Notes: generated from the sequence alone by a model not told the origin. A DNA stretch of 54,140 nucleotides from a virus (IMGVR_UViG_3300031954_000008:1-54140), one strand, 5' to 3'; counted from the first letter of the stretch, positions 3-54,140 are shown. Made by a program: numbers and translations.

Positions 3-2801
3 CTGCCGCAGCTAGGTGCCACCCTTCCGCCAACTCCAGGCGCGCCACCGACGCCCAAGAAGGTAGCAGCGACCACGCCGAGCGGTGTAAAGGTCGTGAG
101 TAAGTTCCTTCAGCCGGGGCAGCTGGAGTGGACGGGCAAGACGCTGGGCGGTGTAAGCGGCGCACGAGTTTACAAGGACCACAACGGAGTTGAGTGGATC
201 GTCAAAGTGCCTGGCGGGTGGAAGGGTACGAGCCACGCCTACAGCAACTCAAAGTTCTTGAGCGACTTGGACGTTGCGACCAGCCGGATACAGAACAAGG
301 CTGGGCTGCCGGTGCCGGCGATGCACAAGGTGATGATCGAAGGTCGTGAGGCGAGCGTACAGAAGATGTACAGCCGCGTACAAGACCCATTCAAGAATCA
401 CGACGTCACCCAGACACCGCTCACCGACAAGGAAACCCTTGAGCTACAACAGAATATGGTGCTCGACTGGCTGCTGTCGAACCACGACGCACACAGCGGT
501 AACTTCCTCAAGACCGACAAGGGCATCATTGGCATCGACAAGGGCCAGAGCTTCAAATACTTTGGCAAGGACAAACTTACGCCAAACTTCGGCCAAGACC
601 TGAACCCGCCGCTCGCGCCGAACAAGCCTGTGTACTCTAAGATGATGTCCGCGTTCGTAAATGGCGACATGAGTATGCAGCCGTTCAACTCGCCAGAACT
701 GGGCAAGACCATATCGCGCATCTCGGCGATACCTGACGACGAGTACAAGGACATGCTGCGGCCGTACGCGGAGCAGGCGGCAAAAGCCGGATTACTCATG
801 AAGTCTGGCAGTCAGCCCAACAACGTGGATGCGTTCCTACAGGCGGCTGTGGACCGAAAGAACAACCTACAGACTGACTTTGATAAGCTGTACGATCAGC
901 TGCTCAAGGACAAAGCAGCCAAGGAGCAGGCCTCAGGCAAGATCAGCCACCTCACAGAGCCGTCAGCGGCGAAGGTTGGCCCGGAAGAATTTGCCGCCAA
1001 CCAAGCAGCAACAGCCGCAAAGACTTTGGAAGGCCAGCCACCTGATTACGTAGCTAACCAATACGGCAAAGGCCTGATCACTTTCGATGAGCTGAAGAAC
1101 TACGTTGAGAATAGCCAAGACGTGAATGTGACTCACATCACGAAGTGGCAGGCGCTTGGTACGATTAGCGCAGAGAACGCTAAAGAACTGAAGGTTGCGA
1201 AGGTTCAAGCAGACCAAGCGATTATCTCTGGAATCCAAAAGCTAGCTCCCGGTTACGAAGTCGTGCCTCATCCAACGGACACAGGCACCTTCGCCATCAA
1301 GAAGCCGGGTGGAGCGTTTAGCCAAAGCTCAAGCGGCGTAACGAAATCCTGGCCAACCAAAGAGGATGCGCTCAACTCATCCACGATGGCGAAGTACAAG
1401 AACCAAGCGGAACAGGCAGCGCAGTATGAGAAGGCTGGCGCTAAGAACTTCGCCAATGCCGCACCAAATTACACCATAGACCAAATCGGTAGCTACCCAC
1501 AGGAAGATTTAGACAAGTACAACGAGCTCAAGGCAAAGATCAGCGCCGGCACCGACACTGGCGACGAGTACGCGCAGTTCAAATCGCTCAAGTCCAAGTT
1601 CGACAACGCTTCCAAAGCAGCAGGAGCGGCCCAGGTGGAGCATGGATTTGAGAATGAGGCTGGCGGGTTTACCCCACCGGCGAAGCCACCCGCGCCAGCC
1701 ATCAGTAGCAAGAAGCTAGGCGGCATGAACTGGAAGGCAAAGGGTGGAGCGCCGCCAAGCTGGGACAAGATAAAGGGCCCAGACGCAAAGGAATTGGGCG
1801 CAGAGCTATGGAAGCGTAAGCAAGCCGGTGAGTTTGCGAACGTGTATGAGATGTATAAGGCTGCCGCCAAACTCAGTGCGGCACAGAAGAAGAAGGCTGA
1901 GCAGGACAACCCAGGCGCATCGTTAGAAGCAGGCGTTCATTACGCCTCAGCCAACCAGTTGCGAAATGCCGCGCTACGTACGGAGTTTGACGAGACTGGC
2001 AACGTGATCTGGGAGACTGCTGAAGAGAAGACATCGCACGAAGTCGGCCAGACCGTCGCGGAGATTAAGCACACGATCAGCCTCCACGACCATGTGCCGG
2101 TAGTCGAAGCATCACCAGGGCAGAATACTGCGACGCACGCAAAAGAGTTTGGTAACAAGGCATTTGATCCCAGCGCGCCAGTCGGATCGTACACCAATCC
2201 ACACGCCTTCAAGACAGGCGACAAGGCGAACCTGGAGAAGTACGGCTACAAGTACACCGATCACAAGAGTTGGCCGCAGGACCAGAAGTCAGCTTGGTAC
2301 AACTTCAGCGGTTCCGGCTCTGGAACGCTCAACACGTTCTTCCGTACAGGTAAGGTTGGCTCTTTTGGTGATCCGATAGCGACCAAGAAGCGTGCGAAAG
2401 CTCTTGTAGACGCATTTAATTCACCAAATGTGAAGCCGTTAGACGACTGGACCATGGTGGTACGCGGTACATCTGGCGGTTGGGAGTTTGGAATCGGCAG
2501 TGACTCAGTCACTTTCGATGAAATCAAGGCTATGGAAGGCAAGGTTGTCCGCAATAAGTGCCCTGTGAGCAGTTCGTTGCGCGATAGGCCGCCATGGGGC
2601 AACATTCGCATCACGTACAAGCTACCTCCTGGCTTCCGTGGGCTCAATATCCTTGGGAAATCAGCACATAGCGGTGAGAACGAAGTCATATTGCCGCCTG
2701 GGATGGCATACCGCATTCTTGAGGTGAAGAAGGGCACTAGCTATAGCTCTGAAGTGCTAGTGGAAGTTGTTGACGTGAAACTACCGGATATTGAGGTGTG
2801 A
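3..2801 (+). CDS. Large fusion protein: N-terminal HipA/PI3-PI4-kinase-like domain plus C-terminal VIP2-like ADP-ribosyltransferase (5'-truncated by the window edge)
   Basis: The frame is open from position 3, upstream of the listed GTG at 96. Kinase motifs: GGVSGA...WIVK, DWLLSNHDAHSGN, IDKG. ART R-S-E triad: VVRG, VSSS, ENEVILPPG. Confidence 0.8.
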   Translation: MPQLGATLPPTPGAPPTPKKVAATTPSGVKVVSKFLQPGQLEWTGKTLGGVSGARVYKDHNGVEWIVKVPGGWKGTSHAYSNSKFLSDLDVATSRIQNKAGLPVPAMHKVMIEGREASVQKMYSRVQDPFKNHDVTQTPLTDKETLELQQNMVLDWLLSNHDAHSGNFLKTDKGIIGIDKGQSFKYFGKDKLTPNFGQDLNPPLAPNKPVYSKMMSAFVNGDMSMQPFNSPELGKTISRISAIPDDEYKDMLRPYAEQAAKAGLLMKSGSQPNNVDAFLQAAVDRKNNLQTDFDKLYDQLLKDKAAKEQASGKISHLTEPSAAKVGPEEFAANQAATAAKTLEGQPPDYVANQYGKGLITFDELKNYVENSQDVNVTHITKWQALGTISAENAKELKVAKVQADQAIISGIQKLAPGYEVVPHPTDTGTFAIKKPGGAFSQSSSGVTKSWPTKEDALNSSTMAKYKNQAEQAAQYEKAGAKNFANAAPNYTIDQIGSYPQEDLDKYNELKAKISAGTDTGDEYAQFKSLKSKFDNASKAAGAAQVEHGFENEAGGFTPPAKPPAPAISSKKLGGMNWKAKGGAPPSWDKIKGPDAKELGAELWKRKQAGEFANVYEMYKAAAKLSAAQKKKAEQDNPGASLEAGVHYASANQLRNAALRTEFDETGNVIWETAEEKTSHEVGQTVAEIKHTISLHDHVPVVEASPGQNTATHAKEFGNKAFDPSAPVGSYTNPHAFKTGDKANLEKYGYKYTDHKSWPQDQKSAWYNFSGSGSGTLNTFFRTGKVGSFGDPIATKKRAKALVDAFNSPNVKPLDDWTMVVRGTSGGWEFGIGSDSVTFDEIKAMEGKVVRNKCPVSSSLRDRPPWGNIRITYKLPPGFRGLNILGKSAHSGENEVILPPGMAYRILEVKKGTSYSSEVLVEVVDVKLPDIEV

Positions 2802-3196
2802 TGACGACATTTCAACCTATTACACCGAATTGGCTGACCGCAGCTTGGGATCAGTTCAGCGAAAGCGACCCAGAACTGGAGCAGGCATACGATTGGCCCG
2901 ACTTCCCAAGCGACAGAACAGGCGAAGGCAACTGGATTGACCTGTATTTGACTGAGACAGATGACTTTCCGATTGGCCGGTTGTGGATTAACCCTGATAC
3001 ACAGAACATTGGGCTCATACCGCTGCCAGATGGCAACATCAGCTACCAGACGAAGATAGCCTTGGAGCTACGCGAGTACAAGCACCATCGCACAGACCCG
3101 CTGACTGCGTATGATCAGATCAAATCGGAATACTTTGGGACACAAGAAGAAACAGGCAACTTGAAGAGCGCAGGAGTGCCCGGTGAGTCTTTCTAA
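2798..3196 (+). CDS. Small acidic hypothetical protein, possible immunity protein for the upstream toxin
   Basis: 132 aa. Start overlaps the upstream stop (GTGA/TGATG). Function inferred from position only. Confidence 0.6.
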   Translation: MMTTFQPITPNWLTAAWDQFSESDPELEQAYDWPDFPSDRTGEGNWIDLYLTETDDFPIGRLWINPDTQNIGLIPLPDGNISYQTKIALELREYKHHRTDPLTAYDQIKSEYFGTQEETGNLKSAGVPGESF

Positions 3197-4850
3197 TGGG
3201 CCGCTGGTCATGGACCACTGGCACATTTACCGCAACCCTCGTGTTGCGTGGGACCCGCATGATGGGCAATGCCAGGTTCTGGAGAGTAAAGCGAGACACC
3301 GCGTTTGGTGCGCAGGACGCCGTACAGGAAAGTCGGAGCTAGGCGGGCACGTCCTGCTGCCCGAAGCGTTCGCAACACGTACGGTCAGCAATGACTGGCT
3401 CAAAAAGGGTAAGCGGCGTGAGTTTTGGATCGTTGGCGACGAATACGTCACTGCAGACAAGGAGTTCCGTGTTATTTGGCATCTCGCTAAGTATCTCCAG
3501 ATTCCGTTCGACAAGGGTAGCCATCATTCCATTGATGGTAAGGATCAAAGCGTGCTTAGCCTCTGGAATGGTGCGTTCCTCATACTCACTCAAAGTGCCA
3601 AGTACCCAGATAATCTCGTCGGTGAGGCACTCTGCGGAGTGCTGATGGTGGAGGCCGCGAAAGCGAAGCCAAGCATCTGGATGAAATACATCCGGCCCAT
3701 GCTCAACGACTACAAGGGCTGGAGCTTACACACATCGACACCAGAAGGGAAGAACCATTTCCACGACAAGTACGAATTTGGCCAGGACCCATACAATTTG
3801 GATTGGGCAAGCTGGCGGATGCCGGCGTGGCGTAACCCGTATGTGTATCCAGAGACAACGAGAGATGACCACGTTAAGTTCTTGCTAGATCAGCTGGAAG
3901 ATCACCCCGGCAGAAGCGCAGCCAGCATCGCGGTTGCTAACGACTTGCTCATAGATTCTGAAATCCTTGCTCTTGCAGACGAATTGACCATTCCTCTGTT
4001 CAAGCAAGAGGTCATGGCCGACTTCACCGAGTTTGTAGGACAGGTGTTTAAGGACTATGACGAAGAATACCATGTTGGAACGCTCAGCTACAATCCAGAT
4101 TGGCTCACTTTTGGTGCAACTGACTACGGCTTTACCAATCCTAACGTTTGGTTGCTTATCCAAGTTGGTCCGTGGGGCGAGATCAACGTGCTTGCTGAAG
4201 TATATCAGCCAAACCTTACAGCCGAACAGTTCGCAGATGAAATCATCAAGCGCCGCACCAGAGATGGTGTCCCTCTCAACCCGCCCGACCTCAGGACTTT
4301 CTATCCTGATCCTGCAGACCCGATGTCCAGTCGAACACTCTCCGACCGTTTGAAAGTCAGTGCGGCTGGCGGGACTGGTGGTGAACTCAACATTCGCATC
4401 AACTTGATTCGCCAAGCGTTGCGTGCTGGCCGAATCGACTACGGTGCAACACCTTTGACTGAGGGCAACTATGACAAGTGGCGCCCGCGACTGATGATAG
4501 ACCGCAGCTGTACGAGCTTGCGCAATGACATGCTTGCCTATCGGTATCCAGAGCGCAAAGAGGATGCTGAGACCAGTCGTGATCGCTTTGAGTTACCGCT
4601 GAAGAAGGATGACCATGGACCGGAAGCGTTGGGACGCTTTATGGTTGGCTATTACGGGCCAAATTCTCTTACCGCTAGCGCTGGTACACGGATACGAAAG
4701 GCTAACCTGGGACGTCATGCTAGCAACAAGCGACGAGACAGGGTTGCAAAGCCAAAGCCATTGAGCGCCATGAGACCTACTGCGAGTGGTTATCCGACTT
4801 GGCGAGAGGGCGGTACGATAACCGACAAGGAGTTTAGAGATGCCGATTGA
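3183..4850 (+). CDS. terL: Terminase large subunit
   Basis: Walker A AGRRTGKS, Walker B-like VLMVEA, STPEG coupling motif, nuclease DYG...DDH motifs; lies just before the portal. Confidence 0.93.
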   Translation: MSLSNGPLVMDHWHIYRNPRVAWDPHDGQCQVLESKARHRVWCAGRRTGKSELGGHVLLPEAFATRTVSNDWLKKGKRREFWIVGDEYVTADKEFRVIWHLAKYLQIPFDKGSHHSIDGKDQSVLSLWNGAFLILTQSAKYPDNLVGEALCGVLMVEAAKAKPSIWMKYIRPMLNDYKGWSLHTSTPEGKNHFHDKYEFGQDPYNLDWASWRMPAWRNPYVYPETTRDDHVKFLLDQLEDHPGRSAASIAVANDLLIDSEILALADELTIPLFKQEVMADFTEFVGQVFKDYDEEYHVGTLSYNPDWLTFGATDYGFTNPNVWLLIQVGPWGEINVLAEVYQPNLTAEQFADEIIKRRTRDGVPLNPPDLRTFYPDPADPMSSRTLSDRLKVSAAGGTGGELNIRINLIRQALRAGRIDYGATPLTEGNYDKWRPRLMIDRSCTSLRNDMLAYRYPERKEDAETSRDRFELPLKKDDHGPEALGRFMVGYYGPNSLTASAGTRIRKANLGRHASNKRRDRVAKPKPLSAMRPTASGYPTWREGGTITDKEFRDAD

Positions 4851-6450
4851 TTCCAGACAGTACGACTCAGTCATCAGCCAAATCCGCGATGACACCGGGT
4901 TCAGCAGACTCGTCGGCAACCTCAGCAACATAGACGACCGCATACGCATCAAAGCGTATGAAATGTTTGAAGACTTCTACTACAACCGGCCAGAACACAT
5001 CAAAGTTGTTCTGCGAGGCGAAGATGACGACTGCATCGAGATTTACATGCCGTCGGCCAAGAAGTGTATCGAAGCTGTAAACCGTTTCCTTGCAGTTGAA
5101 TTCGATTATCAGATTGATCCAGACGCTGACGAGGCAACGTCGCAGGTTATGGACGATGCGCTCCAATCTCTGTTCAAGCGGCAAGAGGTAGTACAGAAGT
5201 TCAACCAGATGAAGCGGTACATGCTCATCAAAGGTGATGCGCTGCTTCATATTCGGGCAATTCCGTGGGAGAAGGCTGGGCGGCGCTTGAGGGTTGATGA
5301 GCTGCGGCCTGAACACTACTTCCCAATTGAGGATTTTGCTACAGGTGAGTGCATAGGCTGCCACATCGTTGACGTTATCCGTAATCCGCGCAACAGTTCT
5401 CAGACCAAAGCCGCCAGCGACGAGTGGATTGTGCGCCGGCAGACGTATAAGCGCGCTTTTGATGACAGCGGAACACCAACGGGCAGAATAACTTCCGAGC
5501 TTTCGCTGTGGAAGGTTGGGATGTGGGATGATCGTGTGGCCACTCCTGACCTAGATCAAATCTCAGTGGTAACTCCTGAGTTTGAGCTTGACCCGTTGAT
5601 CACAGAGATACCCGTTTACCATTGGGCGAACAGACCGCCACCCGGTAGCACTTTCGGCATGAGCGAATTGGCAGGCGTTGAGTCAATCATCAACGCTATC
5701 AACCAATCTGCCACAGATGAAGACCTTACGCTCATCACGCAAGGCTTGGGCGTGTACTGGACCGACGCATCACCGCCCATAGACGAGAACGGAAATGAGG
5801 TGGAGTGGGAAATTGGACCAGGCGCTGTTGTTCAGGTTGGGGTTGGCGCTAATTTCGGTAGGGTTTCTGGAGTCTCCACGCTTACGCCGTTCCACGAGCA
5901 CATCTCCCTTCTGGACGAAAACATGCAACAGGCTCTCGGCGTGCCTGATGTTGCTATTGGTATGGTCGATGTTGCAGCTGTGGAATCTGGTATAGCGCTG
6001 ACGCTTAAGTTTGGCCCGTTGATCGCGGCTAACACAGAGAAGATGCCGACTATCACCAAAGTCGCAGATGAGTTCCTAGACGACTTGCTGGATTGGCTAC
6101 AGGTCTACGAGGGCATAGCACGCAATGGTGTTGATATACAATCAGTTTTCGGCGATCCTATGCCGAAGAACACCACCCAGATGCTGGCGGATTACCTATC
6201 CATCTGGGTTCAGGCTCCGAGCACACTCCCTGTCGAGTGGCTGTATGACCGACTCAACGAGCTATTTGGTTGGGACCTAAGCGATTCCGACTTCAACCAA
6301 GCTCTGGAAGATGCCAAGAAGATAGCCGAATCAGCTGCTCCACCAAACCCAATAGCTGATCAGATGAACCAGTTTGGCGATCAAGGTGGCCAGGTGCCAC
6401 CAGATGCGTTCCAAAACAATGGGCAGACACTAGATTTCAGCACTATGTGA
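4840..6450 (+). CDS. Portal protein
   Basis: 536 aa directly after terL; FGMSEL and ESGIAL motifs typical of SPP1-like/actinophage portals. Confidence 0.88.
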   Translation: MPIDSRQYDSVISQIRDDTGFSRLVGNLSNIDDRIRIKAYEMFEDFYYNRPEHIKVVLRGEDDDCIEIYMPSAKKCIEAVNRFLAVEFDYQIDPDADEATSQVMDDALQSLFKRQEVVQKFNQMKRYMLIKGDALLHIRAIPWEKAGRRLRVDELRPEHYFPIEDFATGECIGCHIVDVIRNPRNSSQTKAASDEWIVRRQTYKRAFDDSGTPTGRITSELSLWKVGMWDDRVATPDLDQISVVTPEFELDPLITEIPVYHWANRPPPGSTFGMSELAGVESIINAINQSATDEDLTLITQGLGVYWTDASPPIDENGNEVEWEIGPGAVVQVGVGANFGRVSGVSTLTPFHEHISLLDENMQQALGVPDVAIGMVDVAAVESGIALTLKFGPLIAANTEKMPTITKVADEFLDDLLDWLQVYEGIARNGVDIQSVFGDPMPKNTTQMLADYLSIWVQAPSTLPVEWLYDRLNELFGWDLSDSDFNQALEDAKKIAESAAPPNPIADQMNQFGDQGGQVPPDAFQNNGQTLDFSTM

Positions 6451-6461
6451 CAGGAGGTACA

Positions 6462-6647
6462 ATGGCCGCAAAAGGCAAGGCGCGCATGAAGCCTGGTGGC
6501 GGTGGGCGTTTCAAGAAGTTAACCAAAGGCGGCATGAGTCCTGCACTAGCTGCCTACGTTGGGCGCAAGAAGTACGGCGCCAAGAAGATGGCCAAGTTCA
6601 GCGCAACAGGCCGCAAGCGAGCAGCACGGGCCAGGAAGCGAGGATAG
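6462..6647 (+). CDS. Small, very basic (K/R/G/A-rich) protein
   Basis: Strong SD (AGGAGG) before ATG 6462; 61 aa with no acidic residues. Confidence 0.75.
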   Translation: MAAKGKARMKPGGGGRFKKLTKGGMSPALAAYVGRKKYGAKKMAKFSATGRKRAARARKRG

Positions 6648-6927: not shown

Positions 6928-7308
6928 ATGGAGCTTCGTCTGAATCATGTTCACCCGCCCACTATTTCAGCACAAGCTCAAACCGCGTTGCGGCACATGG
7001 CAATTGCTGCGTACCCATACGAGACTTGCGGCTTGATCCACGAGCACGGCATTATCGTTGAGCATCCCAACACTTTTGCTGGCGATCACAGGCTTGGGTA
7101 CGACATGGAGTTTGATCTTCACGACCCAACGATCAAGGCAATCTGGCACACGCACCCTGGTGGGCTTGAGGTGCCGTCGCGGGATGATCTGCCGTGTATC
7201 CGGTTGCTCGCTGAACGCGGCTTCAATTTCCATCACATCATCGTCACTCCCAAAGGTGTATACGAGTATGAGGCGAAGTTAGTTGACAGCGCCGTTACCG
7301 CAGCCTGA
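6928..7308 (+). CDS. JAB/MPN (Mov34/M67) metallopeptidase
   Basis: Complete JAMM motif: YPYETCG (catalytic E)...WHTHP...PSRDD (H-x-H-x7-S-x2-D). Confidence 0.88.
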   Translation: MELRLNHVHPPTISAQAQTALRHMAIAAYPYETCGLIHEHGIIVEHPNTFAGDHRLGYDMEFDLHDPTIKAIWHTHPGGLEVPSRDDLPCIRLLAERGFNFHHIIVTPKGVYEYEAKLVDSAVTAA

Positions 7309-8191
7309 TGATAGCGGAGCATCCATCTGGTTGCTCAAATACCTGACGGTACAACAACTTTACGACAAGAAGATCGTAAAGGTACTGCAGCAGGCCCAAT
7401 TTGACGCAGGACAGGAGGCCGATAAGTGGCAAAGGACCAACATTGGTGACAGGACCAAGCGATACCAATTCAACCTGGTTAAAGACCAAATCCGCACGAT
7501 CATACAATCAATGTTCAAAGACCTTGTCCCAATCATCGACCAGGGGCAGCAAGACGCAGCCGAAGCAGCTGCGAAGGCTGCTCTGGCTCAGGATGCGAAG
7601 GTGCTAGATGCGCTGTTCCCAGCCGCGAAGGATCGAAAGGCGTGGGAAGCCAGCTTCATTCAATCAGCACAGCACGGCATCCAGGCGATGATTACCCGGC
7701 TTACCAAGTCGAAGATAACCCTCAGCCAGCAGGTGTACCGTACCGGCTCCATGGAGGCTGGGCGGGTTGACCGGAAGATCAACAGCGCTCTCGCACGTGG
7801 TGCTAGCGCCAAGGAATTGGCCAAGCTGGTGCGAAATGATATCAACCCCAACGTAGCTGGGGGAGTCAGCTATGCAGCCATGAGGCTGGGTCGTAGCGAG
7901 ATTAACAACGCTTTCCATGCAATGTCTATCGGCCAAGCTCAGGAGGATCCATGGGTTGAGGAAATGGAATGGCACCTTAGCAAGGTACACAAGCCTGATC
8001 CAGGTGACCTCTGTGAAACATACGCTGAGCAAAAGTATTTCCCGAAAGACGCTGTGCCGTCGAAGCCGCATCCACAATGTATGTGTTACCTGACACGCAA
8101 AGAGATGGCATGGGGTGACTTTACAGATGCACTTGAGTCCGGCCAGTTCGATGACTACTTTGAAAAGAAGTACGGTATGCCCGCCGCATAA
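7283..8191 (+). CDS. MuF-like (SPP1 gp7-like) minor head protein
   Basis: AMRLGRSE...W...C...PxxPHPQCMC motif; lies between portal and scaffold. Confidence 0.8.
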   Translation: MTAPLPQPDDSGASIWLLKYLTVQQLYDKKIVKVLQQAQFDAGQEADKWQRTNIGDRTKRYQFNLVKDQIRTIIQSMFKDLVPIIDQGQQDAAEAAAKAALAQDAKVLDALFPAAKDRKAWEASFIQSAQHGIQAMITRLTKSKITLSQQVYRTGSMEAGRVDRKINSALARGASAKELAKLVRNDINPNVAGGVSYAAMRLGRSEINNAFHAMSIGQAQEDPWVEEMEWHLSKVHKPDPGDLCETYAEQKYFPKDAVPSKPHPQCMCYLTRKEMAWGDFTDALESGQFDDYFEKKYGMPAA

Positions 8192-9400: not shown

Positions 9401-9444
9401 TCGCCTCAAAGCCAATGAGCTTCGCGCAAATTGAAAGGATGACC

Positions 9445-10614
9445 ATGGCAGAGAAGTTCCGCATTTGGGGCGGTGCCGGTAACCGTTCCGGCTACATGAC
9501 TGAGGGTGATATCCTCACTCATACCATCGATGGCGTTGACCTCAACCAACTTTGGGGTGAGTTCATTGACGCCAACACGATCTACAACGAGCACAAACAG
9601 GGCATGGTCGGATTGCTCACTTACCCAGTGGTTTCCGACATCGAACTGGTGCCACAGATCGGCGACTTCAACTTTGAAGAGGCGACTGAATTCGGCATCC
9701 CGCGCAAGGCGAACACCAACATCAGCTACTACCAGCTGGCTTACTCCTACAAGGACTGGGACCTTGGAGTTGGCTACACCTGGAAGTTCTTGCGGGATGC
9801 ACCGGCTCAGCAAGTAGAAGCCATTCATACCAAGGCAATTCAGGCAGACCAGGCCTTGGTGTTCCGCAAGGTGATGGAAGCGCTGTTCGATCAGCGTAGC
9901 CGTACCACCATCATCAACGCCATGACGTACAACGTTTACCCGCTCGCCAACGCAGATGGTTGGGTGCCACCGCCCTATAAGGGTGTCACGTTCGACGGTA
10001 CTCACAACCACTACCTCACTTCTGGTGCGGCAGGCATTGATTCAGACGACTTTGAAACCACTGTTGGTACCCTTACCGAACACGGTTATGGGTGGGACAC
10101 TGGTACGCAAATCGTCTGCTTCGCCAACCGCTCTGAGGTAAACCAGATGCGTAAGTGGCGATTTGGGCAGGCCAACGCCAACGGCAAGACGGCCAACTAC
10201 GACTTCGTGCCGGCTCTTGGCCAGCCCGCGTTGCTCGTGCCGAACGCCGAAGGTCTGTTGGGTGGCCAGGCTCCTGCCGTGTGGAACGGCTTGCGGGTCA
10301 GCGGTTCTTACATGGACGTCATCGTCATTGAAGAGCCATTGATGAATCCTGGTTACTGCATGTTCCTTTCAACTGGCGGCGCCAACGTTGACGAGAACAT
10401 CGTTGGTATCCGCGAACATCCGTCACCGGAGTGGCGGGGTTTGAGGTTGCTGCCGGGTAACCAGCAGCGTTACCCGCTCGTTGACGGCTACTACATCCAC
10501 GGTTTCGGCACTGGTATCCGGCGACGGACTGGTGCTGCTATCCTGCAGATCACAGCCAACGCGAGCTACGCGCCACCGGCTTCGTACACGGCTGACTCAA
10601 CGCAAACCCGCTAG
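9445..10614 (+). CDS. Major capsid protein
   Basis: About 389 aa, SD GAAAGGA before ATG 9445; position, size and FEEATEFGIP / GFGTGIRRR motifs resemble actinophage major capsids. Confidence 0.85.
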   Translation: MAEKFRIWGGAGNRSGYMTEGDILTHTIDGVDLNQLWGEFIDANTIYNEHKQGMVGLLTYPVVSDIELVPQIGDFNFEEATEFGIPRKANTNISYYQLAYSYKDWDLGVGYTWKFLRDAPAQQVEAIHTKAIQADQALVFRKVMEALFDQRSRTTIINAMTYNVYPLANADGWVPPPYKGVTFDGTHNHYLTSGAAGIDSDDFETTVGTLTEHGYGWDTGTQIVCFANRSEVNQMRKWRFGQANANGKTANYDFVPALGQPALLVPNAEGLLGGQAPAVWNGLRVSGSYMDVIVIEEPLMNPGYCMFLSTGGANVDENIVGIREHPSPEWRGLRLLPGNQQRYPLVDGYYIHGFGTGIRRRTGAAILQITANASYAPPASYTADSTQTR

Positions 10615-14136: not shown

Positions 14137-14416
14137 TCTATATGGAGTAGCAGGTGCAGCATCAATTCTGTTTGATAGAGGGATATTTCGCTTTGGTCGC
14201 TATGTAGAAGGTATGATGGAACAGGCCTCTGAAGGTGCCCAAAATGAGGCATTTGCACGTTCCCACCGGCTCCGTGCCTTCGCTGAATGTATGGGCGACG
14301 ATATGACGAAATCCACTGCAGGATATGCTGATCCATTCGTCAGTGGTGGTGGAGGCGTCATTAGGCGTGGCGAAGACAATCCAGACGATGGTGAAATTCT
14401 GGCTAGTGGGTACTGA
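14063..14416 (+). CDS. Tail assembly chaperone second ORF (T-like), probably reached by frameshift
   Basis: Overlaps the end of the previous ORF in its +1 frame and ends at the tape measure start (TGATG). Confidence 0.6.
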   Translation, partial: KVFGNKRKAWEAWQMSQAYSRPPSDLYGVAGAASILFDRGIFRFGRYVEGMMEQASEGAQNEAFARSHRLRAFAECMGDDMTKSTAGYADPFVSGGGGVIRRGEDNPDDGEILASGY

Positions 14417-17400
14417 TGCCTGATTATGATCTTGGTCGTGCACATGGCGAAATCATCATCACCGCCGATACTCGCGGAGCGGATGAAGCTGCTGCTAGTA
14501 TGGCAGCTGTCGATGCTGAAAGTAAAACTCTCAGCGGGCATCTCAGCGAAGTAACCGAAGCTCTCAACAAAACCGAACAGCAGCACGGTCGTGTAGGACA
14601 AGCTGCCTACAAACACAAGACCGCGATCCAAGACCTCAACAAGCAGTACAACCAATTTCACCAAGAGTATCAGCAAGCGGCTCAGCGTAGCACCAAGATT
14701 CATGAAGAGTGGACCAAAGCGTTCACAGACAAGAAGCCGCTCACTGAACTCATGGAGTTTAAGCGGAAATACGCCTTAGCACAGGAAGAAGAAAACAAGC
14801 TACACGAGCGCGCTGTTCAAAGCTATGCTCGTCTCAATCGTGCCGTCGAAGATGCGCGTGCTCATATCCGAAACTTCACACAGGATACTCAGACAGCTTC
14901 TCAGCACTTGAAGAACTTCGCCAATGACTTGGAGAAGATCAACGGTGTTGTCGAACGGGTTGCGCACACGCTGACTAACGTACTCGGTACGGCGCTCAAA
15001 TCCCTTGCTATGGTTGGCGGAGTGGGTGCCGCTGGCGGGTTACTAGGTCTACTCGGCGGTGGCGGCATTCAGACCATAGCGGGCGTTACGGCGGCCATCG
15101 TACAGCTATCCGGCGCTATCGCCTTACTGCCGGCCGCAGCTGGTGCTGGTGGACTTGCTTTGGGTACGTTGGCCGTTGGCATGCATGGTATTATGGATGC
15201 TCTCAAGTCCATGGATGATCCTGCGAAGTTTGCTGTAGCGATACGCCAATTAGCTCCTGCCGCACAGCAAGTCATGATCACTCTCTCGCACTTCACTGAT
15301 TCGTATCGCGGTGCTATGCGAGAAGTTCAGCAATCCTTGTTTGCCCCAATCGTTGACGATATTCGACCGCTCATTCAAACTTGGCTACCGCTGCTGATGC
15401 ATGCCGGTCAGCAGATTGGCGCGGTATTCGGGCAAGCGATGCACCAAATACTACAGTTCATGACGACTAGCGGCACGCTACAAGCCATGAACACCTTTGT
15501 AACCAACATAACTTCGGCGATGCGAGGGCTGTTGCCCGCCATCCAGCCGGTTATGGAAGCGTTCAGGACGCTCGGAGTTGTTGGCTCCCAATTCCTTCCG
15601 CAGATCAGCGCTTCAATCGTCAAGATAGCCAATGAGTTTAATCAATGGATACAGGCCGCGGCGCAGTCCGGCAAGCTACAGCAATGGATACAGAGCGCCA
15701 TTGATGGCTTTGGCCAACTTTTCAGTGCTATCAAGAACTTTGGCGAAGGCATAGCCAATATCTCCAGTATTGCCAGTCAGTTTGGCGGTGGCTTCTTACA
15801 GACGCTCCAGCAGATAGCTGTTGAGTTCAACAAGTGGACGGCAAGCGCAGAAGGCCAGCAGACGCTTACTGAGTTCTTCAAGGCGGCTCACGCTGCGGCC
15901 GTAGCACTTACGCCAGTACTTCACACAGTCGCTACTGCTCTCGGTCAGCTATTTACGAACCTGATGAACCTTGGCGCCAGCATGGGGCCTGGCATCAATT
16001 CGTTCTTCCAAAGTCTAGGTCAAGCACTAAACGTGTTGGGGCAGGCCTTGATTGCGTCTGGGCCGGCACTCGGTGAGATACTGACAACGCTAGGGCAAGC
16101 GTTAGTTACAATCGTACAATCTGTGGGGCCAGCGCTACCAACTCTGTTCAGAGACTTCGCCCAAATCCTGAAAGACCTTGCGCCGACACTAAAGACAGTC
16201 GCAGAGGCCATTGGTACATTCCTAAGTCATTTGACGCCAACGGAATTGAAGTGGATACTCGGTATTACCGTTGCGTTGGTAGCTCTGGGCAACATACTAG
16301 GCACGCTGGCTAGCGGCATCGGCATAGTTACGACAATTCTAGGTGGCCTAACGGCGGCAGCGGCTGCGCTCGACATTGCTTTAGGCCCGCTGATTTTGAT
16401 CATTCTCGCAGTTGTTGCTGTACTTGTTGTTCTCGGCGTTGTCATCTACGAAGTCGTAACCCATTGGGACACAATCAAACGTGTGATGGGCGAGGTCTGG
16501 GAGACCATGAAGCAGTGGGCTTCGTGGCTTGGCAATGAGTTTGTCCAGATATGGGATACTGTTGTAAACGCAGTCAAAGCAGCATGGGACGCAATCGTCA
16601 GATTCTTCGGCGGTATTGGCGATGCGTTCACAGGCGCATGGAATACGGTGAAAGAAGCCGTATCTCATTGGTGGGATGAGGCTTTCGACTGGGGTAAGCA
16701 TCTCGTCCAGAGCATCATCGACGGCATACGTTCCATGTTCGGCAGTATGCGCGATGCCGTTTATGACTTGTTCGGTATAGCGCGAGATCATGGCAAGACC
16801 AGTTCGCCTGCGAAACTTGGTCCACTGCATGATGATTCACCAGACTCCATGGGTGCGGCGTTCGCTACCAACTACGCCAGAGGCATAACGGAAGGTACGC
16901 CAGCAGTTACAGACGCAGCGTCGGGCATGGCAGGGGCAGCTGCTAGCGGCGCTCAAGGCGGCACAACGACATCTGGTGGAGTATCAAATACCGGAATGGG
17001 TTTCAGCAGCGCTGGTGGTACAGGTACGTCGGGCGGGCAGGTCCAAGGCACTTCCGGCTTCGATCAATGGATCACTTGGCTGACGACCGATATGGAGGCT
17101 TGGAAGAACATCTTCCAGCATGCTTTCAACCTTGCCTTGCATATCGGCAACATCATGATGGATGGCGCGAAAATTGTTGCGTCGCTGTGGAATCGCGGCG
17201 ACAATCCAATGACGCGGCCTGGTGGCTTCTTCGGTAGGCCACTAACTCCGCAAGAGCAAGTCTATGGCGTTCCACAGGTACAAGAGCCAGGTCATGCGCC
17301 ACTTCCATGGGGAGAGAAGCTACCTGGTGGTCCAGGTGCCGGCCCACAAGAGCAAGCAGGCGACGTTCCGCAGGTTGGTCCGCAAGGTCAAAACGTAGCT

Positions 17401-31881: not shown

Positions 31882-32478
31882 ATGCAGCGGTATGTAATTG
31901 GCGGCTTGCTCATAGGCATTGCCCTTATGTGTAAGATGCCATGCGCTTACGCTGATCCTGTGCCGGCTCCAATTCCTGGTCCTGGTGGTGGAATTGATCC
32001 AGTAGGAGGGTCAGTTGGTATTGGTGCTCCTGGACTTGGCGGCGGTGGGCCTGGCTTGTCCCCTGCCGCCGCCACCATATTCCTCTGTCCAGGTCGTGGT
32101 GCAGCCGTAAGCGTTGTTGGTGGTGGTGGAGGGTATTGCGACTGGAACTTTCAAGTGGTACCTTTCGGCAACGGCCATTATGGTGTTATGCATGATCATT
32201 GCGAATGGGGTGGCTTCAATCCCCTTGTAGAGATGTGGAATTGCTGGCGGGTTTGGCCGGGCCAGCCTGATCACCCCGCGCTACCCGATCCAGATATCAT
32301 TCCAGATGGTTGGGGTGTGCCGTGGGCGATTCAAGGTCCAACCCCAAGCGACCAATGGCCTCCACCTGGCCTAGCGCCGTTTATTCCAGCACCGCCAGCA
32401 GAGCCAGTGGGTCCACCACCTGGACCACCGACAGCGGAACCGCCGCTTGGTTTGAGAGAACCGGAAGGAACACCATGA
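31882..32478 (+). CDS. Secreted Pro/Gly/Cys-rich protein
   Basis: N-terminal signal peptide with AYA|DP cleavage site; four Cys in the mature core; Pro-rich tail. Confidence 0.65.
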   Translation: MQRYVIGGLLIGIALMCKMPCAYADPVPAPIPGPGGGIDPVGGSVGIGAPGLGGGGPGLSPAAATIFLCPGRGAAVSVVGGGGGYCDWNFQVVPFGNGHYGVMHDHCEWGGFNPLVEMWNCWRVWPGQPDHPALPDPDIIPDGWGVPWAIQGPTPSDQWPPPGLAPFIPAPPAEPVGPPPGPPTAEPPLGLREPEGTP

Positions 32479-33224
32479 CTGAAATCATTCTACCATTTGA
32501 TCACGGTATCATACCGCAGGAAACTGGCTACTGGTGTGGGCCTGCGAGTGCCCAAGTGGCACTGAGTTGTCGGGGTATCTACGTCGAAGAATGGATACTA
32601 GCAGAGGAATGCGGTACCCACCAGGGCGGCACCGATTATGTTGGGCTGATTGAGAATTGCCTTAACGGTAGGCTGCCAGAACGTCCGTATGACTCTGTAT
32701 ATGCGGATAGCTACCCGGATGACCAAAAGAAGCAAAGGTTTTGGGAGCTAGGCATCGTTGGTTCTATCAATGCCGGCTACTCGCTTGTAACTAACTGGCA
32801 AGTTCCGCCCAACAACAATCCAGTAGGGATCAAGGGATCAGACTCACCAAACTACAGCGACTACAGCGACACCTACCACTACACAAGTGTTGTCGGATAT
32901 GACGATCAATATCCAGGTGGCGCCGTTTATGTTGCGGATTCTGGCTTTTGGCCTTGGGAATACTGGATTAGCTTCGATCAACTATGTACTCTCATACCAC
33001 CAAAAGGATTCTGTTACAGCACTATCAAAGGAGAAGCCGAAGTGCCCACACAAGAGGAATGGAACGATCTGGTACGCAAGGTTGATAACATCGAACGCCA
33101 GCTAGGCCCATGGCCGCAGCTTGGCCAGAACGCGGCTGGTGAAGACCTGACGCTGGTCGATGCTACAGCTTCAATCAAGAACACCGTTGAAGGTGGTGAG
33201 CCCCCTTTACAGAGCCGCCAATAA
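32475..33224 (+). CDS. lysA: Lysin A (C39-like cysteine peptidase domain plus conserved C-terminus)
   Basis: QETGYWCGPAS...HY...GYD...ADSG papain-like triad; C-terminal WPQLG...TLVDA motif of mycobacteriophage lysin A proteins. Confidence 0.8.
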   Translation: MTEIILPFDHGIIPQETGYWCGPASAQVALSCRGIYVEEWILAEECGTHQGGTDYVGLIENCLNGRLPERPYDSVYADSYPDDQKKQRFWELGIVGSINAGYSLVTNWQVPPNNNPVGIKGSDSPNYSDYSDTYHYTSVVGYDDQYPGGAVYVADSGFWPWEYWISFDQLCTLIPPKGFCYSTIKGEAEVPTQEEWNDLVRKVDNIERQLGPWPQLGQNAAGEDLTLVDATASIKNTVEGGEPPLQSRQ

Positions 33225-50294: not shown

Positions 50295-50744
50295 ATGACG
50301 AACGTGAGTAAAGCTCCGATAAACACCGGAATCTATTGCGAGCCAATACTTTCAGATTATGAATCTGCAGTAGACTACCGCACTGGCGATGGGCAAGTAG
50401 TTGCTCATTCAGATAGGGTATGTGTCTATAAGGAGCGTGCTGGGCGAAAGGAACAGCCTGTACTTGATAGGCTTTGGGCTAGAACGGATGTCGTTAAACA
50501 TCCAAATTTTGATACTCCGTGTTGGCTATATGATGGTATAGACAAAATTCATAAGTATCAACAGATTTGGTATCACGGTAAATTTGTGCGAATACACAGG
50601 TTAGCGTTAATCTTAGATGGCGAAACTTTAACGCGAGGCATGACAGTTGATCATATGTGTGAACGTAAAAATTGTTGGAACACAGATCACTTAGAAGAAA
50701 TAACACCAGGCGATAACACCCGCCGTTATCATCGTGGGAGGTGA
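50295..50744 (+). CDS. Free-standing HNH homing endonuclease
   Basis: CWLY...HRLA...VDHMCERKNCWNTDHLE...N motif; AT-rich relative to its flanks. Confidence 0.88.
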   Translation: MTNVSKAPINTGIYCEPILSDYESAVDYRTGDGQVVAHSDRVCVYKERAGRKEQPVLDRLWARTDVVKHPNFDTPCWLYDGIDKIHKYQQIWYHGKFVRIHRLALILDGETLTRGMTVDHMCERKNCWNTDHLEEITPGDNTRRYHRGR

Positions 50745-50749
50745 TATAA

Positions 50750-50878
50750 ATGGATTATGTTTCGTTACACCACCATTCGACTTTTTCATATGGAGATGGT
50801 TATGGTTTGCCTGAAGAACATGTTGAGCGTTGTGCAACGCTTGGTATGAAAGCTATGGCGTTGACGGAACATGGTTGA
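50750..50878 (+). CDS. dnaE: DnaE PHP domain, first 42 residues (ends at an in-frame TGA)
   Basis: MDYVSLHHHSTFSYGDG...AMALTEHG*; strong SD GGAGGTGA; same frame as the ORF at 50885. Confidence 0.85.
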   Translation: MDYVSLHHHSTFSYGDGYGLPEEHVERCATLGMKAMALTEHG

Positions 50879-53973: not shown

Positions 53974-53996
53974 ATGGTAACCCAGCCAGCCAGCAT

Positions 53997-54140
53997 GTGA
54001 CGGAACAGCAACGGGCGCAAGCACTTTCAGCGATCCAGAAGCTATCTAATGTGATGGGCCAGCAGCAACAGAAGCCCATCCTAAAGCTGCTGCGAGAGAT
54101 GGGGATTGAACCGAAGTACATGACGGTGGTGGTTGGCGAT
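53997..54140 (+). CDS. Start of a hypothetical gene (3'-truncated; start uncertain)
   Basis: Frame VTEQQRAQ... is open to the window end. Confidence 0.4.
   Translation, partial: MTEQQRAQALSAIQKLSNVMGQQQQKPILKLLREMGIEPKYMTVVVGD

What the first reader, a model, noticed from the sequence alone, without database searches (positions are those of the whole stretch)
3..2801. Kinase-like and ADP-ribosyltransferase domains in one protein just upstream of terminase
Seen: a HipA/PI3-PI4K-like catalytic set (WIVK; DWLLSNHDAHSGN near 465; IDKG) and an R-S-ExE ART (R near 2463, SSS near 2568, ENE 2676-2684) joined by about 450 aa of Ala/Lys-rich linker. The ORF extends beyond the window. Established: ExE-type ARTs modify arginine, and T4 Alt is a virion-delivered ART. 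Inference: a multi-enzyme effector, possibly packaged and injected, that both phosphorylates and ADP-ribosylates host targets for takeover or anti-defence.
Basis: partly seen in the sequence, partly recalled or inferred. Interest (0 to 1): 0.72.

Follow-up and report, generated by a model that had tools for sequence, protein, structure and literature searches.

The report
Phage kinase plus ADP-ribosyltransferase effector with inhibitor
This is the larger part of a big phage protein that joins an unusual kinase to an ADP-ribosylating enzyme, followed by a small gene that probably keeps the second enzyme switched off in the cell that makes it; related phages weld the same enzymes to a head protein, so it is probably carried in the virus particle.

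Summary
Window 3..2801 (+) holds the C-terminal 932 of 1077 codons of one gene; the first 145 codons lie off the contig. Residues 38-310 fold (pLDDT 91) as an atypical kinase, closest to PI4K type II alpha (Z 15.4), then CtkA and HipT/HipA. K68, D162, H164 and D179 are invariant in 57 sequences. Residues about 713-932 are a C3/VIP2/iota-type ART (Z 17.9); R821 is conserved in at least 90% and S856 and E892-x-E894 in all of 40 sequences.

The "linker" is mostly folded. It contains an ~80-aa helical module that is duplicated ahead of each enzyme.

New here:
- The next gene (2798..3196, 132 aa, no known family) follows the ART gene in three unrelated phage backgrounds.
- It is modelled on the ART active site (ipSAE 0.91, best control 0.00).
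- The kinase domain is often fused to the head protein MuF, in 22 of 36 ORFs tested from many phyla.

Best reading: a head-packaged, ejected two-enzyme effector with a cognate ART inhibitor. Packaging, activities and targets are inferred, not shown. It is a new variant of the known MuF-toxin/polyvalent-effector kind.

The parts
3..2801 (+). C-terminal 932 of 1077 codons of the kinase-ART protein. The first 145 codons are off the contig.
   Evidence: It is 59% identical to Mycobacterium phage Onyinye gp16 'ADP-ribosyltransferase'.
114..932 (+). Atypical (PI3/4K-HipA-like) kinase domain, ORF residues about 38-310.
   Evidence: AF2 pLDDT 91.2, pTM 0.90. VIA-align: PI4KII alpha 4pla Z 15.4, rmsd 3.7, 236 aligned; CtkA Z 12.9; HipT Z 11.0; all 50 rows shown are kinases or kinase-fold proteins. 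Foldseek: CtkA, PI4KII alpha and HipT at E about 1e-4 to 1e-5. Pfam hits are all below their cut-offs.
135..206 (+). Gly-rich loop GKTLGGVSG (residues 45-53) and the strand carrying the invariant Lys K68 (WIVK).
   Evidence: K68 is invariant in 57 sequences; positions. The role as an ATP-binding Lys is inferred from the kinase fold.
480..545 (+). Catalytic loop NHDAHSGN (residues 160-167; D162 and H164 invariant) and the metal-binding-type IDKG (178-181; D179 invariant).
   Evidence: The best Pfam stretches are HipA_C 138-168 and PI3_PI4_kinase 114-195.
1020..1652 (+). Middle region, ORF residues about 340-550, predicted to be folded (mostly helices plus a small sheet). No informative fold match.
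   Evidence: pLDDT mostly above 90. Only generic helical matches with Z up to 6.4. No Pfam or PHROG hit.
1752..2003 (+). Second copy of an ~80-aa helical module (ORF residues 584-667). The first copy is in the missing N-terminus (P0004 residues 70-142), so one copy precedes each enzyme domain.
   Evidence: Internal BLASTP: 52% identity, E 6e-21. The same duplication is in Onyinye gp16 at 39%, E 2.4e-7. Helical with pLDDT above 90.
2139..2798 (+). R-S-ExE ADP-ribosyltransferase domain of the C3/VIP2/iota type, ORF residues about 713-932.
   Evidence: VIA-align: CPILE-a Z 17.9 (rmsd 2.3, 192 aligned), Certhrax 17.7, C3bot2 17.3, VIP2 16.1. Foldseek: C3bot1 E 1.4e-9, TMt 0.75. phrog_3895 E 6e-7. 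PF03496 scores 19.5 bits, below its 23.4 cut-off.
2463..2465 (+). ART catalytic-type Arg R821 (VVRGT).
   Evidence: At least 90% conserved in 40 sequences. Lies in the predicted interface with the small protein.
2568..2576 (+). ART S-x-S motif (S856-S857-S858).
   Evidence: S856 is invariant and S858 at least 90% conserved. S856 lies in the predicted interface.
2676..2684 (+). ART ExE motif (E892-N-E894).
   Evidence: Both Glu are invariant in 40 sequences.
2798..3196 (+). 132-aa gene whose start overlaps the ART gene's stop. Candidate ART inhibitor (immunity protein) of no known family.
   Evidence: No Pfam, PHROG or NCBIfam hit. Homologs lie directly downstream of the ART gene in Onyinye (58%, E 1e-56), McProf (33%, E 5e-17) and Sixama (25%, E 7e-9). 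Complex model ipSAE 0.91 against best control 0.00.
3183..4850 (+). Large terminase subunit (context).
   Evidence: phrog_2, E 2.7e-27.
4840..6450 (+). Portal protein (context).
   Evidence: Weak SPP1_portal hit. Aligns by DNA to the Onyinye portal gene.
7283..8191 (+). Separate MuF-like minor head protein (context). In this phage MuF is not fused to the effector.
   Evidence: phrog_1657 E 8.7e-27 and phrog_115 E 3.7e-25. PF04233 E 0.002.

Best explanation
The ORF is a late, morphogenesis-module gene of an Onyinye-like actinophage. It encodes a 1077-aa two-enzyme effector. I propose the following course. The protein is made with the head proteins and loaded into the capsid. It leaves the particle with the DNA. 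In the newly infected cell it acts through an atypical PI3/4K-HipA-type kinase, which most likely phosphorylates host proteins, and through an arginine-directed C3/VIP2-type ADP-ribosyltransferase. In the producing cell, the 132-aa product of the next gene sits on the NAD-binding cleft of the ART and keeps it inactive. The inhibitor is lost when the effector is packaged or threaded out unfolded. Shown here: the folds, the conserved catalytic residues, the gene linkage, the MuF fusions in relatives and a confident complex model. Inferred: packaging in this phage, ejection, both activities, arginine specificity, the protein nature of the kinase substrate and the fate of the inhibitor.
For: Kinase fold: AF2 pLDDT 91.2. 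All 50 rows shown by VIA-align are kinases or kinase-fold proteins, led by PI4KII alpha at Z 15.4, with CtkA 12.9, HipT 11.0 and HipA 10.5. K68, D162, H164 and D179 are invariant in 57 sequences. ART: Z 16-18 to CPILE-a, Certhrax, C3 and VIP2, Foldseek E 1.4e-9, R-S-ExE conserved. Head association in relatives: McProf gp54 is VG15/MuF + kinase + ART directly after the portal gene. PF04233 is recorded for 22 of 76 homologs. MuF was found in 22 of 36 kinase-bearing ORFs tested from genome contigs, for example a Desulfosarcina prophage with terminase, portal, then MuF::kinase. The gene sits in the terminase-portal-MuF-scaffold-capsid block. Inhibitor: its homologs follow the ART gene in three different genome contexts. 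These include Sixama, whose ART protein has no detectable kinase domain. All 9 of 9 phage records with a tblastn hit carry it right after the kinase+ART gene, and none of the 3 kinase-only records appears among the 9. The complex model gives ipSAE 0.92, 0.88 and 0.91 against a best control of 0.00, a mark reached by 58 of 80 solved complexes and 2 of 110 mismatched pairs. Partner pLDDT was at least 90 and the runs agreed in at least 95% of contacts. The interface includes R821 and S856. Precedent: the prophage MuF-ART Bxa is an Arg-ADP-ribosylating toxin neutralised by an adjacent active-site-blocking protein, Bsi (PMC11699363, abstract and passages).
Against: This protein has no MuF domain; the full-length P0004 gives no PF04233 hit at E up to 0.01. 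No signal that would load it into the capsid was identified. No virion proteomics for Onyinye-type phages was found in the library. All kinase family hits are below the curated cut-offs. The best structural match is a lipid kinase, not a protein kinase. The window's own ART scores below the Pfam cut-off (19.5 against 23.4 bits). The complex score is the model's own confidence, used my own alignments, and does not show binding. Some solved ART-immunity complexes exist, so memory of them cannot be fully excluded.
Confidence: 0.6

Rival explanations
1. The protein is not packaged. It is a late-expressed intracellular enzyme pair that modifies host or phage proteins in the producing cell, and the small protein acts as a timing regulator rather than an immunity protein.
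For: There is no MuF domain in this protein. MuF is a separate gene at 7283..8191. Benler et al. argued that a HipA-family kinase encoded between the portal and capsid genes of Gratiaviridae is late and not an early takeover factor (PMC8008677, passages).
Against: The same domain pair is covalently fused to MuF/VG15 in relatives, and the kinase domain is a recurrent MuF cargo across phyla. An inhibitor that covers the active site fits an enzyme meant to act elsewhere.
Confidence: 0.2
2. It is a prophage-type polymorphic toxin released at lysis and used against competing bacteria, or acting outside the cell, as proposed for strongly toxic MuF toxins and for Bxa.
For: The toxin-plus-adjacent-immunity arrangement matches it. 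The MuF toxin literature supports the idea (PMC5576092 passages; PMC11699363). The McProf-type relatives are prophages.
Against: No export or receptor-binding part was detected. No integrase turned up among the window ORFs scanned against Pfam, although the contig is incomplete. Onyinye-type relatives were isolated as plaque-forming phages on M. smegmatis.
Confidence: 0.1
3. The kinase domain does not phosphorylate proteins. It is a lipid kinase (for example of phosphatidylinositol) or a small-molecule or nucleotide kinase. This concerns one step only and is compatible with packaging.
For: The best fold match is PI4K type II alpha, Z 15.4 against 10.5-12.9 for HipA, HipT and CtkA. Weak PI3_PI4_kinase and LepB_N Pfam hits point the same way. 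That actinobacteria contain phosphatidylinositol is recalled knowledge. The domain co-occurs with NAD-related domains: C3-type ART, Scabin-like ART and NUDIX.
Against: The family is spread over genomes titled Armatimonadota, Chloroflexota, Acidobacteriota, Verrucomicrobiota, Gammaproteobacteria and Desulfo- lineages, most of which are not known for inositol lipids (recalled). Fam20, CtkA, HipT, HipA and actin-fragmin kinase are protein kinases and also score Z above 10.
Confidence: 0.25
4. The kinase-like domain is an inactive scaffold (pseudokinase).
For: No curated kinase family is reached.
Against: The Lys, the D-x-H of the catalytic loop and the Asp of IDKG are invariant across 57 sequences down to 27% identity.
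Confidence: 0.05

Closest known systems
Mycobacterium phage Onyinye gp16 (also Aikoy and Leopard gp15), annotated 'ADP-ribosyltransferase'
   Same: 59% identity over 85% of the query. The gene order is the same: effector, 132-aa gene, large terminase, portal. It has the same kinase and ART domains and the same duplicated helical module.
   Different: Onyinye gp16 has 1340 aa, with an insertion of about 340 aa in the middle region. The record names only the ART; the kinase domain and the small gene are unannotated.
McProf-type (cluster MabR) prophage gp54, 'minor capsid and ADP-ribosyltransferase domain fusion protein'
   Same: Kinase domain 37% identical (E 1e-48) and ART 28% identical (E 8e-22), in the same order. 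A homolog of the small gene lies directly downstream.
   Different: It has an N-terminal VG15/MuF-type head domain (PF25310, E 5.7e-37) and lies after the portal gene, not before the terminase. The MabR paper does not mention this gene; 'MuF', 'minor capsid', 'kinase' and 'gp54' each have 0 occurrences.
Bxa-Bsi-BAH of a Bacteroides stercoris prophage, and MuF polymorphic toxins in general
   Same: A phage head-module ART with an adjacent small protein that blocks the active site. Bxa modifies arginines (PMC11699363). MuF toxins were proposed to be delivered with the DNA (PMC5576092).
   Different: Here there is no MuF in the polypeptide, a second enzyme (the kinase) is present, and no ADP-ribosylhydrolase gene was found among the window ORFs scanned. 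Similarity of the 132-aa protein to Bsi could not be tested because the Bsi sequence was not at hand.
Phage T4 Alt
   Same: An R-S-E ART of the Alt/VIP2 clade. Alt is packaged in the head and injected (as described in PMC5512222 and PMC9503650).
   Different: Alt is a single-enzyme protein with no kinase and no known separate inhibitor gene (recalled). No sequence comparison with Alt was run here.
Polyvalent proteins (Iyer et al. 2017)
   Same: A large phage protein joining several effector enzymes, encoded beside the head genes. Kinases and ARTs are both listed as typical domains.
   Different: [quoted passage not shown] 'HipA' and 'PI3K' each have 0 occurrences there.
HipA/HipT/CtkA and PI4K type II alpha kinases
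   Same: The same fold, a D-x-H-x-x-N catalytic loop, a following Asp and a beta-strand Lys.
   Different: Identity is 13-17%. There is no HipA N-terminal domain and no HipB or HipS partner. Pfam scores are below the cut-offs.
HipA-family kinase of 'Gratiaviridae' gut phages (Benler et al. 2021)
   Same: A HipA-like kinase encoded in the head gene block between the portal and capsid genes.
   Different: It comes from a different phage group (Bacteroides hosts), with no ART, and was interpreted as superinfection immunity. Its relatedness to this domain was not tested.

Membership tests
ADPrib_exo_Tox / C3-VIP2-iota (Alt/VIP2, R-S-E) ADP-ribosyltransferases | Sequence match to PF03496 at the curated cut-off. 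| tested here: inconclusive
   The window protein scores 19.5 bits against a cut-off of 23.4 (E 6.6e-4). Its homologs pass: Onyinye gp16 32.6 bits, McProf gp54 59.2 bits. phrog_3895 E 6e-7.
ADPrib_exo_Tox / C3-VIP2-iota (Alt/VIP2, R-S-E) ADP-ribosyltransferases | The ART fold of the C3/VIP2 type. | tested here: met
   Z 17.9 (CPILE-a, rmsd 2.3, 192 aligned), 17.7 (Certhrax), 17.3 (C3bot2), 16.1 (VIP2). Foldseek E 1.4e-9 with TMt 0.72-0.80.
ADPrib_exo_Tox / C3-VIP2-iota (Alt/VIP2, R-S-E) ADP-ribosyltransferases | The catalytic triad of motifs: Arg, S-x-S and E-x-E. | tested here: met
   R821 at least 90% conserved; S856, E892 and E894 invariant in 40 sequences.
ADPrib_exo_Tox / C3-VIP2-iota (Alt/VIP2, R-S-E) ADP-ribosyltransferases | NAD-dependent ADP-ribosyl transfer to arginine. 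| not testable with these tools
   Needs an enzyme assay. Arginine specificity of ExE enzymes is established knowledge, not a result here.
HipA family kinases (PF07804) | Match to HipA_C at the curated cut-off. | tested here: not met
   18.0 bits against a cut-off of 30.5, and only residues 138-168 match. Among 76 homologs, 13 carry a precomputed PF07804 hit.
HipA family kinases (PF07804) | Kinase fold with a D-x-H-x-x-N loop and a metal-binding Asp. | tested here: met
   HipT Z 11.0, HipA Z 10.5 and 9.8. D162, H164 and D179 invariant.
HipA family kinases (PF07804) | A HipB or HipS antitoxin partner and a toxin-antitoxin operon. | tested here: not met
   The neighbours are phage head genes. 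The only adjacent small gene tracks the ART, not the kinase.
PI3/PI4 kinases (PF00454) | Match to PI3_PI4_kinase at the curated cut-off. | tested here: not met
   13.2 bits against a cut-off of 27.1.
PI3/PI4 kinases (PF00454) | Fold of the PI4K type II catalytic domain. | tested here: met
   4pla Z 15.4 (rmsd 3.7, 236 aligned, 16% identity) and 4hnd Z 15.0, the top two of 48,161 chains.
PI3/PI4 kinases (PF00454) | Phosphorylation of phosphatidylinositol. | not testable with these tools
   Needs a lipid kinase assay.
MuF polymorphic toxins (Jamet et al. 2017) | An N-terminal MuF domain in the same polypeptide. | tested here: not met
   The full-length P0004 has no PF04233 or PF25310 hit at E up to 0.01. 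MuF is a separate gene at 7283..8191. Relatives do carry the fusion.
MuF polymorphic toxins (Jamet et al. 2017) | A C-terminal toxin domain with an adjacent immunity gene. | tested here: met
   A C-terminal ART, a conserved downstream gene and a complex model with ipSAE 0.91 against best control 0.00. Binding is modelled, not shown.
Polyvalent proteins (Iyer et al. 2017) | Two or more effector domains in one phage polypeptide encoded by the virion gene block. | tested here: met
   Kinase and ART in one ORF beside the terminase, portal and MuF genes.
Polyvalent proteins (Iyer et al. 2017) | Presence in the virion and delivery into the host. | not testable with these tools
   Needs virion proteomics and infection assays.

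The most novel reading that the evidence does not exclude
The kinase domain would define an undescribed, cross-phylum family of phage kinases that ride into cells as capsid cargo. They would be fused to MuF, or set behind a duplicated ~80-aa helical module that acts as a loading or processing unit for each enzyme. In this actinophage lineage the kinase is teamed with an arginine ART that is held in check by a new family of active-site-capping immunity proteins. If the PI4K-II likeness reflects function, the kinase would be a virus-delivered enzyme that rewrites the host's inositol lipids.
Probability: 0.3. Interest if true: 0.75.

Novelty: new variant of a known kind. Interest (0 to 1): 0.55.

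Why it matters
Head-packaged ARTs and MuF-fused toxins are already a recognised class. Only a few have been studied at the bench: T4 Alt, Apk2 and Bxa, as reported in the papers I read. Three things here go beyond that class.

- **An unannotated kinase domain.** It is confidently folded and catalytically conserved. No Pfam, PHROG or NCBIfam model reaches its cut-off, and it is unnamed in the GenBank records of its closest relatives. It nevertheless recurs as MuF cargo in prophages of many phyla.
- **Two protein-modifying chemistries in one deliverable protein.**
- **A rare small-protein family with a specific, testable role as an ART inhibitor.** It has 32 clusters among 1.84 billion representatives.

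Cultured relatives (Onyinye, Aikoy, Leopard) grow on Mycobacterium smegmatis mc2 155. Packaging, targets and the inhibitor can therefore be tested directly.

Tried and rejected
- **Circular join.** The window is the whole held genome and has no terminal repeat. The frames do not join across its ends, and the 538 nt upstream in L085 do not match the window's 3' end. The contig is therefore incomplete, not circularly closed.
- **Sequence search of solved structures.** The whole ORF gave only chance-level hits (E at least 0.95).
- **Actinobacteria-specific PI kinase.** This idea was weakened because the genome scan found relatives in many phyla. It is kept only as a minor rival.
- **Middle region.** No informative fold match (Z up to 6.4, generic helices) and no Pfam or PHROG hit. 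It was not folded on its own, so a known fold is not excluded.
- **Small protein.**
  - ESM Atlas gave scores of only 0.76-0.78, uninformative. Pfam, PHROG and NCBIfam gave nothing.
  - A viral-contig scan with the wide alignment A4 was not possible. With A2 it found only 7 close, short contigs that add no independent context.
- **Kinase domain in the Atlas.** The nearest clusters are unnamed (0.96-0.97). One cluster at 0.94 carries PF00454 on 38% of its members. This is a lead only.
- **NCBIfam.** Only chance-level hits: SCO1664 family E 0.023 and XopAI E 0.042.
- **Literature.** Four searches found no paper describing a HipA- or PI4K-like kinase joined to MuF or to an Alt/VIP2 ART, and no virion proteomics of Onyinye-type phages. 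Jamet 2017 has 0 occurrences of 'kinase' in its main text. Supplementary tables of Jamet 2017 and the FTP files of Iyer 2017 were not visible and might list such domains.
- **A mistyped frame** gave stop codons and was not needed again, because one search already gives the ART match to Sixama.
Full report
**The ORF and its full length**

Window 3..2801 (+) is an ORF open at its 5' end that gives 932 aa. The held genome is this single 54,140-bp contig. It has no terminal repeat, and no frame continues across its ends. A database protein of 1077 aa (P0004) ends with exactly these 932 residues. The viral contig L085 overlaps the window's first 4322 nt without a mismatch and extends 538 nt upstream. 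It shows the ATG 435 nt before window nt 3, preceded by the end of a homolog of Onyinye gp15. The window therefore lacks the first 145 codons.

**Genome context**

The window is an actinophage-like genome with nearly all genes on the + strand.
- After the ORF come a 132-aa gene (2798..3196), the large terminase (3183..4850, phrog_2 E 2.7e-27) and the portal (4840..6450).
- Then follow a JAB-domain protein, a separate MuF-like head protein (7283..8191), the scaffold and the major capsid protein (9415..10614, phrog_3990 E 6e-142).
- Tail genes and a replication block ending in DNA polymerase III alpha complete the window.

The nearest records are Mycobacterium phages Onyinye, Aikoy and Leopard. 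They are about 78% identical in DNA over the portal-to-capsid genes. Their gp15/gp16 'ADP-ribosyltransferase' is 59% identical over 85% of the query and lies in the same gene order.

**Kinase domain**

Pfam gives only sub-threshold hits, all to one fold class: HipA_C E 0.0024, LepB_N E 0.075 and PI3_PI4_kinase E 0.085. PHROGs and NCBIfam give nothing usable.

A word-indexed search with residues 30-310 found 76 proteins at E up to 0.001 among 2023 candidates. In an alignment of the window domain with 56 of them, K68, D162, H164, D179, Q182, Y211 and R285 are invariant, in ORF numbering.

AlphaFold2 on that alignment gave mean pLDDT 91.2 and pTM 0.90.
- Foldseek matched CtkA, PI4KII alpha (TMq 0.51), HipT and VPS34 at E about 1e-4 to 1e-5.
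- VIA-align against 48,161 chains ranked PI4KII alpha first (4pla Z 15.4, rmsd 3.7, 236 aligned, 16% identity).
- Next came Fam20 (13.0), CtkA (12.9), a bacterial Ser/Thr kinase 7wcf (11.5), HipT (11.0), HipA (10.5), CotH and MavQ. All 50 rows shown are kinases or kinase-fold proteins.

A kinase fold with an intact Lys / D-x-H-x-x-N / Asp set is therefore well supported. Membership of the HipA or PI3/4K Pfam families is not. Substrate class is open.

**ART domain and the 'linker'**

A second model covering ORF residues 300-932 (40-sequence alignment) gave mean pLDDT 86.1.
- The C-terminal part matches C3bot1 (Foldseek E 1.4e-9, TMt about 0.75).
- By VIA-align it matches CPILE-a (Z 17.9), Certhrax (17.7), C3bot2 (17.3), a Listeria ART of an ART-ARH pair (8za7_B, 16.5) and VIP2 (16.1).
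- S856, E892 and E894 are invariant and R821 at least 90% conserved.
- The window's PF03496 score is below the cut-off (19.5 against 23.4 bits), but homologs pass and phrog_3895 matches at E 6e-7.

The ExE form implies arginine as the acceptor by established knowledge of this clade. That was not tested here.

The region between the enzymes is not a plain linker.
- ORF residues about 340-550 and 589-669 are predicted folded with pLDDT above 90. Only about 552-581 and 677-686 are of low confidence.
- Composition is only mildly Ala-rich.
- Residues 584-667 repeat residues 70-142 of the full protein (52% identity, E 6e-21). The same duplication is present in Onyinye gp16. One copy of an ~80-aa helical module therefore precedes each enzyme. 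Its role is unknown; a loading or processing unit is my speculation.

**Evidence bearing on packaging**

In McProf-type prophages of M. chelonae and M. abscessus, gp54 (1185 aa) lies directly after the portal gene. It consists of a VG15/MuF-type head domain (PF25310, E 5.7e-37), the same kinase domain (37% identity, E 1e-48) and the same ART (28%, E 8e-22).

Of the 76 homologs, precomputed Pfam lists:

| Pfam family | Homologs (of 76) |
|---|---|
| PF03496 (ART) | 31 |
| PF04233 (MuF) | 22 |
| PF01464 (SLT lytic transglycosylase) | 6 |
| PF07804 (HipA_C) | 13 |

A pattern scan of one genome per prokaryotic species found 136 relatives, of which 80 were kept. Their record titles name Actinomycetota, Armatimonadota, Chloroflexota, Acidobacteriota, Verrucomicrobiota, Gammaproteobacteria and several Desulfo- lineages, among others.

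I extracted the ORF around each match and scanned 36 of the 80 against Pfam. I dropped two ORFs longer than 3,700 aa for size. The other 42 not scanned were mostly further ~1,530-aa ORFs of the same length class and fragments cut by contig ends.
- 22 of 36 carry an N-terminal MuF.
- 2 of 36 carry a Scabin-like ART, one of them also a NUDIX domain.
- 12 of 36 had no hit, 3 of these being 5'-truncated.
- In Desulfosarcina alkanivorans the order is terminase, portal, then MuF::kinase (1529 aa).

The kinase domain is thus a recurrent cargo of the head protein MuF. Against packaging in this phage: the full-length protein has no MuF domain, MuF is a separate gene, and I found no virion proteomics.

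**The small downstream gene**

Its start overlaps the ART gene's stop. It has no Pfam, PHROG or NCBIfam family.

Homologs lie directly downstream of the ART-bearing gene in three settings:
- Onyinye gp17 (58% identity, E 1e-56).
- McProf gp55 (33%, E 5e-17), where the effector sits after the portal gene.
- Gordonia phage Sixama gp76 (25%, E 7e-9 pairwise). Sixama's 1285-aa gp75 has the ART but no detectable kinase domain (best BLASTP E 1.0).

In the phage collection, 9 of 9 records with a tblastn hit have it right after the kinase+ART gene. The 3 records with a kinase-only protein (Phrappuccino twice, Settecandela) are not among the 9. The gene therefore tracks the ART. The family is rare: 32 clusters at E up to 0.001 among 1.84 billion representatives.

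A complex model of the ART (residues 689-932) with the small protein used my own alignments.
- It scored ipSAE 0.92, 0.88 and 0.91 (median 0.91) against a best control of 0.00.
- That mark was reached by 58 of 80 solved complexes and 2 of 110 mismatched pairs.
- Partner pLDDT was at least 90 and the runs agreed in at least 95% of contacts.
- The interface on the ART includes ORF residues 768-782, 821-828 (with R821), 853-856 (with S856), 864-867, 888-889 and 896.

This supports, but does not show, an inhibitor that caps the active site. No like complex of this small family is known to me, but ART-immunity complexes have been solved, so some memory effect cannot be excluded.

**Comparison with what is known**

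- ARTs of the Alt/VIP2 family fused to MuF, or encoded beside terminase and portal genes, have been described and predicted to be head-packaged (PMC9503650 passages).
- MuF polymorphic toxins with adjacent immunity genes were defined by Jamet et al., and 14% of their 191 toxins are ARTs (PMC5576092 passages).
- The prophage MuF-ART Bxa modifies arginines and is neutralised by an active-site blocker (Bsi) and a hydrolase (BAH) (PMC11699363 abstract and passages).
- Iyer et al. list kinases and ARTs in polyvalent proteins, but of other clades. [quoted passage not shown]
- A HipA-family kinase between the portal and capsid genes was noted in Gratiaviridae (PMC8008677 passages).

I found no description of this kinase family as MuF cargo or joined to an Alt/VIP2 ART. 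Supplements were not visible.

**Verdict**

The idea of a packaged effector is plausible and now rests on comparative evidence, but it is unproven. The ART part is an ordinary member of a known class. The kinase cargo domain, the duplicated module and the new inhibitor family make it a new variant worth bench work in the cultured Onyinye-type phages.

Noticed in passing
window 53961..54140: A 60-aa ORF open at its 3' end starts right after the DNA polymerase III alpha gene and runs off the contig. The contig ends do not join and there is no terminal repeat, so part of the phage genome is missing. Onyinye has 71.4 kb against 54.1 kb here.
   Followed up: partly
window 50295..53973: The DNA polymerase III alpha gene appears split into a PHP-domain ORF (50885..51691, matching the profile only from position 44) and the core (51682..53973). 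The two overlap by 10 nt, and an HNH endonuclease-like ORF (50295..50744) lies just upstream.
   Followed up: no
window 6928..7308: A JAB/MPN-domain protein (PF14464, E 1.6e-9) is encoded between the portal and the MuF head protein. PHROGs calls its family 'tail protein'.
   Followed up: no
window 6447..6647: A very basic, Gly/Lys/Arg-rich 66-aa ORF lies directly after the portal gene.
   Followed up: no
window 14416..20067 and 32310..33224: The 1883-aa putative tape measure protein carries a Peptidase_C39_2-like domain (E 1.4e-7). A 304-aa protein has the same domain (E 5.4e-13) and may be a lysin.
   Followed up: no
P0021, P0024 (homologs): Some relatives carry two tandem copies of the kinase domain. 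They are joined to an SLT lytic transglycosylase (P0021) or to a ParB_N-like domain (P0024) instead of an ART.
   Followed up: partly
L012:4657-11514 and L007:2-2812: In an Actinomycetota MAG, a 2286-aa ORF joins a Scabin-like ART, the kinase domain and a NUDIX domain. In Mycolicibacterium vaccae the kinase domain is followed by a Scabin-like ART. The kinase therefore pairs with two unrelated ART families.
   Followed up: no
L003 (Mycobacterium phage Phrappuccino gp195): The kinase domain sits near the N-terminus of a protein of about 2030 aa annotated 'hypothetical', next to a gene annotated 'virion structural protein'.
   Followed up: no
McProf-type (MabR) prophages, PMC9434293: The paper states that all MabR prophages encode an ADP-ribosyl glycohydrolase in the region thought to be expressed in lysogeny. 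That enzyme could reverse the ART's modification. No such gene was found among the window ORFs scanned.
   Followed up: partly
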